Shown piece by piece: positions 41,082 to 46,165 of a DNA stretch of 64,000 bases. The stretch covers positions 2,080,001 through 2,144,000 of the forward strand of contig CP147778.1 of the NCBI GenBank assembly GCA_037305845.1, in the 5' to 3' direction. The notes below the pieces were generated by a model. It was not told the DNA's origin. It saw only the letters and a program-made list of their open reading frames with translations, and searched no databases. Numbering within the stretch: position 1 is the first letter of the stretch; each line of letters opens with the position of its first letter. The stretch comes from Candidatus Freyarchaeum deiterrae. GTDB lineage: Archaea; Asgardarchaeota; Jordiarchaeia; Jordiarchaeales; Jordiarchaeaceae. The position numbers and the translations under genes were made by a program.

Positions 41082-41687
41082 TCAAATTTTTCTGAAATTC
41101 TTGGCTACAATGTACATTTCCGCGCTAGTTTTTCTGGATGCTTCCGGTTTAGTGGTTCTAACATAGCTGAAATATTGGCGAATTTCTTCTAGGAATTTTG
41201 GGTATTCACTTCCCTGAAAGGCCTTCATGACGAGGTTTCCTCCTTTTTTAAGGACTCTTCTGGCTATGTTTAATGAAGTTCTGGCAAGGAATACTTGTCG
41301 CTCATGGTCGACGCTCCAAATTCCGCTCACGTTGGGTGAACAGTCGCTCAAAACAACATCGAACTCTTCCGAAACGCTCAGAATCTTTTTCATAGTTTCC
41401 TCTTCAAGAATATCACCGCGGATAAAAGTCACGCCGTCTATATTCGAAACTCTGTTAATATCCACTCCCACAACAATTCCCTCATCCCCTAATTCCTCCT
41501 TAGTGATCTGTAACCAACCACCGGGAGCGCAGCATAAATCCAAAACAGCCTTCGCACCGCTTAAAATTCCATACTTTGCATTGAGTTGCCTTAGTTTATA
41601 AGATGCACGTGACCGATAGCCCTCCCTGTGAGCCTTGTAATAATAGTAATCCTTACGTCTCAGTTCAGTCGCACGCTCCGTAAATAT
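41082..41687 (-). CDS. rlmE: 23S rRNA Um2552 2'-O-methyltransferase RlmE (FtsJ)
   Basis: The frame extends beyond the ORF-track start: RRKDYYYYKAHREGYRSRASYKL...VLDLCCAPGGW, SDCSP, KPEASR..SAEMY; no ATG/GTG/TTG before the conserved N-terminus. Confidence 0.88.
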   Translation of the reverse strand: MFTERATELRRKDYYYYKAHREGYRSRASYKLRQLNAKYGILSGAKAVLDLCCAPGGWLQITKEELGDEGIVVGVDINRVSNIDGVTFIRGDILEEETMKKILSVSEEFDVVLSDCSPNVSGIWSVDHERQVFLARTSLNIARRVLKKGGNLVMKAFQGSEYPKFLEEIRQYFSYVRTTKPEASRKTSAEMYIVAKNFRKI

Positions 41688-44399: not shown

Positions 44400-44864
44400 C
44401 TACTCTTCTGTGAAGGTGGCTATTGAACCCTCAGCCTCTTCCACTGAAACTTTAAATTTAAAGTCTTTGAGAGAGGATTGTTTTAACTGCTTGTAGATAT
44501 ACTCAGATATTTTCTCTACAGTTGTAGCTTCAATCGGCAACAGCAAAGCGTCGTCTTTTGGGAAAACGTATCTCCTTTTGTTTGCTACTACTTCCATTTC
44601 CTTTCCCATTTCTTTTATTTCAATATCCTTCGCCTTAGTTGGGATGAGTATGTGGTGATCCATTTTCTGACAAATCTCCCTCGCTATATTTCTTATATCC
44701 ATAAAGTCAACTATCATCTGCTGACCGTTCAACTCATTTGCCTCAATCTCAATAGTTACCCTATAGTTGTGTCCGTGTAGGCGTTCACACTTTGGGTGAC
44801 GCATTAAAAAGTGCGCTGCAGAAAAATTTAGATCCGCTCTGGTCACGACAAGTTTATACGGCAT
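44400..44864 (-). CDS. queD: 6-carboxy-5,6,7,8-tetrahydropterin synthase
   Basis: FSAAH, CERLHGHNY, DF, DH, TTVE; downstream of queE. Confidence 0.9.
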   Translation of the reverse strand: MPYKLVVTRADLNFSAAHFLMRHPKCERLHGHNYRVTIEIEANELNGQQMIVDFMDIRNIAREICQKMDHHILIPTKAKDIEIKEMGKEMEVVANKRRYVFPKDDALLLPIEATTVEKISEYIYKQLKQSSLKDFKFKVSVEEAEGSIATFTEE

Positions 44865-45085: not shown

Positions 45086-45970
45086 TTAAAGAATCCCTAT
45101 AACCTTGTGAGCTTGAATCGAGAGCGAAATATCTTTTTTATCAAGATACTTTGACGCAGTCTCCGTGAACTGGAATAATTGTTTTATCGTGGGTTTCTCT
45201 TTTACTTCCCCGAATGGTGTCACAATCTGTATGCATAATGGGCATCCAATCTTGGCTAGTTCCAATGCGTACCATTCAATATTCTCTGATTTCGTCTCAG
45301 AAGTGACTACAACCTTGGCGAATGTCTTCTTTTTCGCATCCATAAAAATTTTCATAGTTTGGAATTCTCTCTCCACAAGAGCGCTCCAGTCGGAGGCAGC
45401 TCCCGCTGTTTCGTCTTTGATATCACAACAGCAATACTCAAAAAGATCAACAATTTTCAATGCGCAATTGGGCAAAGACCCGTTAGTCTCAAGAAAAAGA
45501 TTGTACCCGCCCGATACAAGTAACTCCGAAACTTCCTTTAGGAAATCTGTTTGATGCAAAGGCTCTCCACCAGTAAATGAAATTGAATGAAGATCCGGAG
45601 TTTCAATCCTTTTCAAATATTCGTACAACCTATCTGAGTCTATAGGGTTTGAAAATAGCGTGAACTCTCCGGTGCCTGGGTTTTCTTCCATTCTGAATTG
45701 CTGCATTTCCGGATTTTGAGCTCCAGGCGAGTGGCGTCTTTAGAGCGTACTCCACAAGATGTCGCACCACCTGCAGCCCTCGGTTCCGAATTCTCCTAAG
45801 GCTAGGTTGCAGCCCGCTAATCGAGCGATTCGACGAAAGGATAAAACTCATCCTTCCTATATCTGACGCTTCCCATAACACGAGCCGCTGACATTGCCTC
45901 CTTCCCCTTTACCTCCCTCTTAAGGGATCTGGTAGGAGGAGAACATCTCAGCGACCCATCCCTTAACCAA
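45086..45970 (-). CDS. queE: 7-carboxy-7-deazaguanine synthase (radical SAM), four exons: 45970-45929, 45907-45859, 45828-45761, 45730-45086; 267 aa after splicing
   Basis: Spliced N-terminus MVKGWVAEMFSSYQ|GEGGNVSGSCYGKRQI|FARLAGCNLALGEFGTEGCRWCD|SPGAQNPEMQQF, then FTGGEP, LETNG, QAHK; TTG start after a GAGGTGA SD. Confidence 0.9.
45731..45760 (-). other. queE intron 3 (30 nt, near-canonical BHB)
   Basis: CAGGUG-G-UGCG-AC^A-[UCUU-G-UGGAG(UACG)CUCUA-AAGA]-CGCC-AC^U-CGCCUG; in-frame UAA; removal gives UGG UGC GAC UCG CCU (WCDSP). Confidence 0.85.
45829..45858 (-). other. queE intron 2 (30 nt, relaxed BHB)
   Basis: AGAU-AU^A-[GGAAGGAUGA(GUU)UUAUCCUUUC]-GUCG-AA^U-CGCU; central helix pairs 3/4; introduces in-frame UAG and UGA; removal gives CAG AUA UUC GCU CGA (QIFAR). 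Confidence 0.82.
45908..45928 (-). other. queE intron 1 (21 nt, canonical BHB)
   Basis: RNA UCC-UACC-AG^A-UCCCU(UAAG)AGGGA-GGUA-AA^G-GGG: 4-bp central helix UACC/GGUA and two 3-nt bulges; contains in-frame UAA; removal gives CAG GGG GAA GGA (QGEG). Confidence 0.9.
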
Positions 45971-46165
45971 TAACATCACCTCGAAATAGATACAAGCATA
46001 AGGTTTTCTAATTAACTCAGTTTCTGAGTCAAGAAGTCTTTTTTACTTTAAATTTGTTTGGCAGTTGATATAAACTTTTATTCGATAAAGCTTATGTATC
46101 TGTTTCTGCTTTATTGATGTGGATTCTCCCTGAGGCTGATCTTTATGTCTTTAGTAGGACTTTTG

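What the first reader, a model, noticed from the sequence alone, without database searches (positions are those of the whole stretch)
45908..45928. Intron 1 is a textbook minimal BHB in the QGEG substrate-binding motif
Seen: exon helix UCC/GGG (extended by UCUCC/GGAGG), central helix UACC/GGUA, bulges AGA and AAG, and intron stem UCCCU/AGGGA with a UAAG loop. After splicing, the exons form a stem with a 7-nt loop interrupted after the 6th base, the same geometry as the tRNA 37/38 intron site. Inference: it arose by insertion (e.g. reverse splicing) into an anticodon-arm-like mRNA hairpin.
Basis: partly seen in the sequence, partly recalled or inferred. Interest (0 to 1): 0.75.

Follow-up and report, generated by a model that had tools for sequence, protein, structure and literature searches.

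The report
tRNA-type intron in Asgard queE mRNA
A 21-base insert that seems to break an enzyme gene (queE) of an Asgard archaeon is almost certainly a tRNA-style intron cut out of the messenger RNA; it is one of three in this gene and one of many in this genome, whereas the papers I could search document such an intron inside only one archaeal protein-coding region.

Summary
Confirmed. [quoted passage not shown] Two more relaxed BHB introns follow (45858-45829, 45760-45731). Cutting all three by the EndA rule gives a 267-aa QueE, 54% identical with one gap to an intronless orthologue. All 11 genomes of the order tested carry the three inserts at the same codons. Intron 1 varies from 20 to 26 nt (9 of 11 shift the frame), its stem is 55/55 Watson-Crick with compensatory changes in all five columns, and the exon codons inside the motifs are synonymously frozen. 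78 other QueE loci are intronless. EndA (two subunits) and RtcB are present. The origin claim is not supported: the '7-nt loop cut after base 6' follows arithmetically from any BHB, the loop is not anticodon-like, and no tRNA-intron donor or reverse transcriptase was found. cbf5, alba and porA introns were verified across relatives, so this is part of genome-wide mRNA splicing. No spliced transcript was found. The scan noted these queE introns before, in other genomes.

The parts
45977..45982 (-). Shine-Dalgarno-like GAGGUG, 6 nt before the probable TTG start at 45970
   Evidence: sequence; same spacing to TTG/GTG/ATG in relatives; start codon inferred
45929..45970 (-). queE exon 1 (42 nt, ends ...SSYQ); supplies the exon stem, central helix strand UACC (45934-45931) and two bulge bases
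   Evidence: codons TCC and TAC invariant in 11 of 11 orthologues
45908..45928 (-). Intron 1, 21 nt, strict BHB, phase 0 between Gln and Gly of QGEG, in-frame UAA at 45922-45920
   Evidence: 20-26 nt in 10 relatives, 19-20 nt in two more; stem 55/55 Watson-Crick
45859..45907 (-). queE exon 2 (49 nt, length invariant in 11 genomes)
45829..45858 (-). Intron 2, 30 nt, relaxed BHB (3 of 4 central pairs here, 4 of 4 in the sister family), phase 1, splits the Phe codon of RQIFxR; in-frame UAG and UGA
   Evidence: 18-30 nt in relatives
45761..45828 (-). queE exon 3 (68 nt, invariant length); carries the substrate Arg and the C-X11-C-X2-C iron-sulfur motif
45731..45760 (-). Intron 3, 30 nt, relaxed BHB, phase 0, directly after CxxCD; in-frame UAA
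   Evidence: 15-30 nt in relatives
45086..45730 (-). queE exon 4 (645 nt); gene callers keep only a 206-aa piece from ATG 45706 that lacks the cluster cysteines
   Evidence: dN/dS about 0.11 against relatives
44400..44864 (-). queD (6-carboxytetrahydropterin synthase), uninterrupted, next gene downstream
   Evidence: TIGR03367 E 5e-24

Best explanation
This is a protein-spliced (EndA/RtcB) pre-mRNA intron, the first of three in queE. The transcript folds into a hairpin in which exon UACC pairs with intron GGUA between two bulges. The two-subunit tRNA splicing endonuclease cuts after the second base of each bulge, releasing 21 nt, and RtcB joins CAG to GGG, restoring Gln-Gly-Glu-Gly. Unspliced mRNA gives a 16-residue peptide, so QueE, and with it probably preQ0/archaeosine synthesis, depends on three splicing events. 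Shown: the structure, its conservation by compensatory change, restoration of frame and motif, presence of the enzymes. Inferred: cleavage and ligation in the cell, which enzymes act, and the QueE activity. Most likely history (inferred, about 0.5): one gain in the ancestor of the order as a short hairpin insertion that a relaxed-specificity EndA could already remove, then fixed because exact loss inside a catalytic motif is rare; mostly tolerated rather than a queE-specific switch, since unrelated genes carry the same kind of intron.
For: Same three sites in 11 of 11 genomes of two families, with exon 2 and 3 lengths invariant while introns vary. Intron 1 shifts the frame in 9 of 11. Stem 55/55 Watson-Crick against 19-31/55 when slid, all five columns with both-side changes. 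The only synonymously invariant codons in exons 1-3 (6 of 29) are at or next to the three motifs, against 0 of 26 in an exon 4 control; dS there is 3-6 times lower. Spliced protein is 54% identical with one gap to an intronless QueE; 78 other QueE loci are uninterrupted; no second close copy in the genome. EndA alpha (Tyr, His, Lys and an L1-like loop by inspection) and beta, and RtcB, are encoded; Asgard EndA is reported as the relaxed L1 type (PMC5829648). tRNA introns of this genome have the same anatomy. Sister genomes lacking the alba or porA intron have exactly the predicted spliced sequence.
Against: No RNA evidence: two searches of metagenome contigs for the spliced junction found nothing, and no full-length correctly framed protein is on record for close relatives. 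The strict BHB is a minor conformer by nearest-neighbour energies, and below 5% for the core in four genomes of the sister family. The QueE name rests on best hits below the curated cut-offs plus gene context. The 11 genomes are related and are not independent tests.
Confidence: 0.92

Rival explanations
1. Origin: an excised tRNA intron was reverse-spliced into an anticodon-arm-like hairpin of the mRNA and copied into DNA.
For: mRNA and tRNA introns here share size (19-33 nt), inner hairpin and A-rich bulges. The G002 version of intron 1 resembles the tRNA-Val(TAC) intron (P 0.035 uncorrected, 1 of 11 tests). Transposition of tRNA introns is proposed for Thermoproteales (cited in 10.64898/2026.10.13.758758).
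Against: The geometry argument is circular; the loop is not anticodon-like. The window's intron matches the roughly 20 tRNA loci examined no better than random hairpins (P 0.45), and none of 23 genome hits with up to 5 mismatches is in those loci. No PF00078 match. The preprint found no general copying or reverse-transcription route for Asgard tRNA introns.
Confidence: 0.12
2. Origin as the shrunken remnant of a mobile BHB intron that once carried a homing endonuclease, which would explain the preference for invariant catalytic motifs.
For: Introns sit in catalytic motifs of queE, cbf5, rtcB and others. Yokobori et al. raise this origin for cbf5 (PMC2738675).
Against: No LAGLIDADG match in this genome with two families; no long version at any queE site in 13 loci. 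The motif bias may partly reflect which introns are recognisable.
Confidence: 0.2
3. The introns are a selected regulatory device that ties tRNA-modification output to splicing capacity.
For: Three introns in the first 240 nt kept across an order; tRNA-related genes are frequent among hosts (cbf5, rtcB, tyrS, gatE, queE). Negative regulation was proposed for cbf5.
Against: queC, queD and tgt are uninterrupted; introns also occur in porA, alba, leuC and an HD-domain gene; alba loses its intron cleanly in two genomes.
Confidence: 0.25
4. The insert stays in the mRNA and the ribosome bypasses it (gene 60 or byp-type hopping; known from my own memory, not tested in the literature here).
For: A hairpin with a stop codon shortly after the 5' junction resembles bypass signals.
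Against: No matched take-off and landing codons (CAG versus AAA). Intron 2, cbf5, alba and porA junctions split a codon whose residue is conserved in intronless relatives, which hopping cannot rebuild. Covariation includes the exon-intron helix that only a nuclease needs.
Confidence: 0.03
5. queE is a pseudogene, or the inserts are assembly errors.
For: Three in-frame stop-bearing inserts; public records hold only truncated or mis-framed proteins.
Against: Same sites in 13 independent assemblies, purifying selection on all exons, compensatory stems.
Confidence: 0.01

Closest known systems
cbf5 pre-mRNA BHB intron of Desulfurococcales and Sulfolobales (Watanabe 2002; Yoshinari 2006; Yokobori 2009, PMC2738675)
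   Same: Short (16-44 nt there), ORF-less, often relaxed BHB at the borders, cut between bulge bases 2 and 3, interrupts a catalytic motif of an enzyme linked to RNA modification, variable interior, lineage-specific loss, hetero-oligomeric EndA.
   Different: Different gene and phylum; three introns in one coding region rather than one; one of at least seven introns in five genes that I checked (queE x3, cbf5, alba, porA across relatives; rtcB in this genome) plus seven further motif-restoring candidates; splicing there is shown by cDNA and here only inferred.
HVO_1309 5' UTR BHB intron of Haloferax volcanii (PMC7714728)
   Same: mRNA substrate of the tRNA splicing endonuclease.
   Different: In the untranslated leader; does not break a reading frame.
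Non-canonical tRNA introns of Freyarchaeia and Atabeyarchaeia (PMC11291895; 10.64898/2026.10.13.758758)
   Same: Same lineage, same size, hairpin and bulge pattern, same presumed enzyme.
   Different: [quoted passage not shown]
IRE1/RtcB splicing of XBP1 and HAC1 mRNA (PMC13149111)
   Same: Spliceosome-independent mRNA splicing by a protein nuclease and a tRNA ligase at RNA hairpins, changing the protein made.
   Different: Uses IRE1 and two stem-loops, not EndA and a BHB; an analogy only, no homology of the nuclease claimed.

Membership tests
Archaeal BHB (EndA-type) intron | 4-bp central helix flanked by two 3-nt bulges on opposite strands, with outer helices | tested here: met
   Strict form in the window; central helix 4/4 and intron stem in 11 of 11, full 3-bp exon helix in 3 of 11
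Archaeal BHB (EndA-type) intron | Cut after the second base of each bulge gives the correct mature sequence | tested here: met
   Restores SSYQGEGG in all 11 genomes; the protein allows only three neighbouring placements and the rule picks one of them
Archaeal BHB (EndA-type) intron | Structure kept by compensatory change while the interior varies | tested here: met
   55/55 Watson-Crick cells, five of five columns covary, slid controls 19-31/55
Archaeal BHB (EndA-type) intron | Motif is the dominant fold | tested here: inconclusive
   Hairpin is dominant, strict register 1.8 kcal/mol above the minimum, relaxed core 0.3 above
Archaeal BHB (EndA-type) intron | Host encodes EndA able to cut relaxed motifs, and a ligase | tested here: met
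   Two PF01974 genes, one with the catalytic triad, and RtcB; specificity itself not assayed
Archaeal BHB (EndA-type) intron | Spliced RNA or in vitro cleavage demonstrated | not testable with these tools
   No transcript reads; junction searches in assembled contigs were empty
tRNA 37/38-type site (anticodon-arm mimic) | Loop with Y32, U33 and R37 on a 5-bp stem that exists without the intron | tested here: not met
   Loop UACCAGG has A at position 33; 3-bp stem, present in 6 of 78 intronless orthologues
QueE (7-carboxy-7-deazaguanine synthase) | QGEG, substrate Arg, three-Cys cluster motif, GGEP, ETNG | tested here: met
   All present in the spliced protein; only PDB hits are QueE
QueE (7-carboxy-7-deazaguanine synthase) | Score above a curated QueE equivalog cut-off | tested here: not met
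   Intronless orthologue scores 33-47 bits against cut-offs of 200-300; the models are bacterial. Context (queD, queC, tgt) supports the function
Mobile homing-endonuclease BHB intron | Encodes a homing endonuclease | tested here: not met
   19-26 nt; no PF14528 or PF00961 match in the genome

The most novel reading that the evidence does not exclude
An Asgard lineage runs routine, genome-wide, EndA/RtcB-dependent mRNA splicing, with multi-exon protein genes (queE has four exons), lineage-specific gain and exact loss of introns, and a ligase gene that needs splicing itself: a spliceosome-independent intron system for protein genes among the closest prokaryotic relatives of eukaryotes, invisible to current annotation.
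Probability: 0.8. Interest if true: 0.87.

Novelty: new variant of a known kind. Interest (0 to 1): 0.72.

Why it matters
The papers I could search name cbf5 as the only archaeal coding region with a BHB intron. A three-intron gene conserved across an Asgard order, alongside introns in several unrelated genes, turns a curiosity into a general expression step and bears on how mRNA introns can arise and persist without a spliceosome. It also has a practical effect: public records of this enzyme are truncated or begin in the wrong frame, so pathways of these archaea are under-called. The prediction is directly testable with existing soil metatranscriptomes. Intron 1 by itself is the cleanest substrate for a cleavage assay but adds no new mechanism, and its geometry says nothing about origin.

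Tried and rejected
Spliced-junction patterns in metagenome contigs: no match in two scans; the collection may hold no such transcripts, so this is not evidence against splicing. Long database proteins (262-264 aa) that looked like spliced products have wrong-frame N-termini. ARAGORN, a regex search and Rfam recovered only about 23 of the 38 reported tRNAs, so the donor search is incomplete, and my automatic tRNA-intron caller made some wrong calls. The de novo genome scan separated true geometry from mirror and wrong-bulge controls only weakly (for example 27 versus 11-17 loci at one threshold), so I give no genome-wide count; it also misses multi-intron genes such as queE. A general target-duplication origin was considered: the last six bases of intron 1 resemble the following Gly-Glu codons, but this is explained by helix pairing plus the AA bulge and is not seen in most other introns. 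The protein tree groups the intron-bearing genes only weakly (58/81), so a single origin rests on shared positions. rlmE in the window looked truncated but is intact. The QueE structure paper could not be fetched. No structure prediction was run, as it would not have changed the verdict.

Full report
Setting. The window lies in a single-contig genome of 3,576,204 bases. That size matches the complete Freyarchaeia genome of 3.58 Mbp in PMC11291895, and close relatives are labelled Freyarchaeota or Jordarchaeaceae; the identification is an inference. That paper reports introns in over 90% of the tRNA genes.

The observation. On the minus strand a reading frame starts at a TTG at 45970 behind a GAGGUG site and reads ...SSYQ, then IP-stop, then resumes with GEGG. 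The region folds far better than shuffles (z -3.5). The strict register is 1.8 kcal/mol above the predicted minimum and the relaxed core 0.3 above; the minimum is the same hairpin slipped by one pair with both cut sites still unpaired.

The gene. Two further inserts follow at 45858-45829 and 45760-45731, each with a stop codon and a relaxed BHB. Removing all three by the rule 'cut after the second bulge base' gives 267 codons, 54% identical with one gap to an intronless orthologue from Hydrothermarchaeales. Its relatives hit only QueE in the PDB; QueE models are among the best NCBIfam hits, though below cut-off; queD follows, and queC and tgt are in the genome. Gln and Glu of the QGEG motif and the downstream Arg bind substrate in E. 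coli QueE (PMC11142719). No second close copy exists in the genome. Without splicing the ribosome makes 16 residues, and the 206-residue piece that gene callers keep lacks the cluster cysteines.

Comparative proof. Five genomes of the same genus and five of a sister family carry all three inserts at the same codons. Intron 1 is 20-26 nt, not a multiple of three in nine of eleven; two more loci have 19 and 20 nt. Exons 2 and 3 are 49 and 68 nt in every case. The five innermost stem pairs are Watson-Crick in 55 of 55 cells, every column shows a both-side change, and slid registers give 19-31. The exon side is constrained too: the six synonymously invariant codons among 29 in exons 1-3 lie at or next to the three motifs, against none of 26 in an exon 4 control, and exon 4 has dN/dS near 0.11. 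Six genomes of other Asgard families and 78 further loci from archaea and bacteria are uninterrupted. These genomes are related, so the counts are not independent trials, but pseudogene and assembly error are excluded.

Machinery. The genome encodes two EndA paralogues, one with the Tyr-His-Lys triad and an L1-like loop by inspection, and one RtcB. Asgard EndA is described as the two-subunit L1 type linked to relaxed motifs (PMC5829648). That RtcB is the archaeal splicing ligase is from my own knowledge. Ribosome hopping is unlikely because several junctions split a codon whose residue is conserved.

Not an isolated case. Earlier notes of this scan pointed to similar inserts elsewhere in the genome. 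My own scan, though too noisy to count with, recovered inserts that restore recognisable motifs in cbf5, tyrS, gatE, ahcY, pcm, endoQ, alba, porA, leuC and an HD-domain gene. I tested three across relatives. cbf5 is interrupted at the Asp codon in all 11 genomes of the order and in one other Asgard genome. The alba intron is in 9 of 11, and the two genomes without it have exactly the predicted spliced sequence. The porA intron is confined to the genus, and the sister family again has the spliced sequence. rtcB carries a 29-nt relaxed BHB in its DxH motif. These intronless alleles validate the cut rule independently of queE.

The origin claim. After splicing, any BHB leaves four helix bases, two bulge bases and one more base between the exon stems: seven bases with the junction after the sixth. 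The match to tRNA 37/38 is thus built in. The loop here lacks the anticodon-loop pattern, as do all 13 junctions checked; the 3-bp exon stem occurs in 6 of 78 intronless and 3 of 11 intron-bearing genes. The intron resembles the tRNA introns I could recover no more than random hairpins do, and no reverse transcriptase or LAGLIDADG endonuclease was found with the families searched. A 2026 preprint found no general arrival route for Asgard tRNA introns either. I rate a locally arising hairpin insertion tolerated by a relaxed EndA at about 0.5, a homing-intron remnant at 0.2 and reverse splicing at about 0.12; none is shown.

Known systems and novelty. It works like the crenarchaeal cbf5 intron and meets every membership feature I could test for a BHB intron except experimental splicing, which I could not test. 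The papers found list cbf5 and one 5' UTR intron as the only archaeal mRNA cases; none found reports Asgard coding-region introns, though the library lacks most subscription papers. The scan itself had noted the three queE introns in other genomes; that is a lead, not independent support. Verdict: a real intron (0.92), a new variant of a known kind because of multiplicity and genome-wide extent; origin inference unsupported; interest 0.72.

Noticed in passing
G000:C1:1125569-1125598 (+), L117: 30-nt BHB intron in an alba gene; present in 9 of 11 genomes of the order, exactly absent in G007 and G008.
   Followed up: yes
G000:C1:1589354-1589381 (-), L118: 28-nt BHB intron in the YPITP motif of a porA-like gene; found only in the window's genus, so probably a recent gain.
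   Followed up: yes
G000:C1:1483415-1483446 (-), L116; L130: cbf5 intron splits the catalytic Asp codon, as reported for crenarchaeal cbf5; a 41-nt version sits at the same codon in G021, another Asgard family, while 13 other Asgard genomes lack it. Either a recurrent hot-spot or an ancient shared intron.
   Followed up: partly
G000:C1:2636158-2636190 (-) and 987065-987095 (+): Strong BHB candidates in a leuC/aconitase-like gene and at the HDIGH motif of an HD-domain gene; not compared across relatives.
   Followed up: no
G000:C1:1452796-1452824 (-), L121: 29-nt relaxed BHB insert in the DxH motif of rtcB, the presumed splicing ligase itself.
   Followed up: partly
window 45761-45828 (-): The iron-sulfur motif of this QueE is C-X11-C-X2-C, between the usual X3 spacing and the X14 spacing of the TIGR04508 family; shared with intronless relatives.
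   Followed up: no
L198:6916-7545 and L199:1901-2527: A DUF366 gene lies between queE and queD in relatives but not in the window, where only about 220 bases separate them.
   Followed up: no
G000:C1:1698331-1698425 (+): The 19-nt intron in the variable region of tRNA-Val(TAC) resembles intron 1 of G002; not significant after correcting for 11 tests.
   Followed up: yes
P0003, P0046, P0007: Public QueE records of this lineage begin in the wrong frame or inside intron 3, so their N-termini are artefacts of gene calling.
   Followed up: yes
window 41082-41687 (-): rlmE/FtsJ frame is open about 50 codons upstream of the start listed by the ORF caller; the gene is intact and no intron is needed.
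   Followed up: yes
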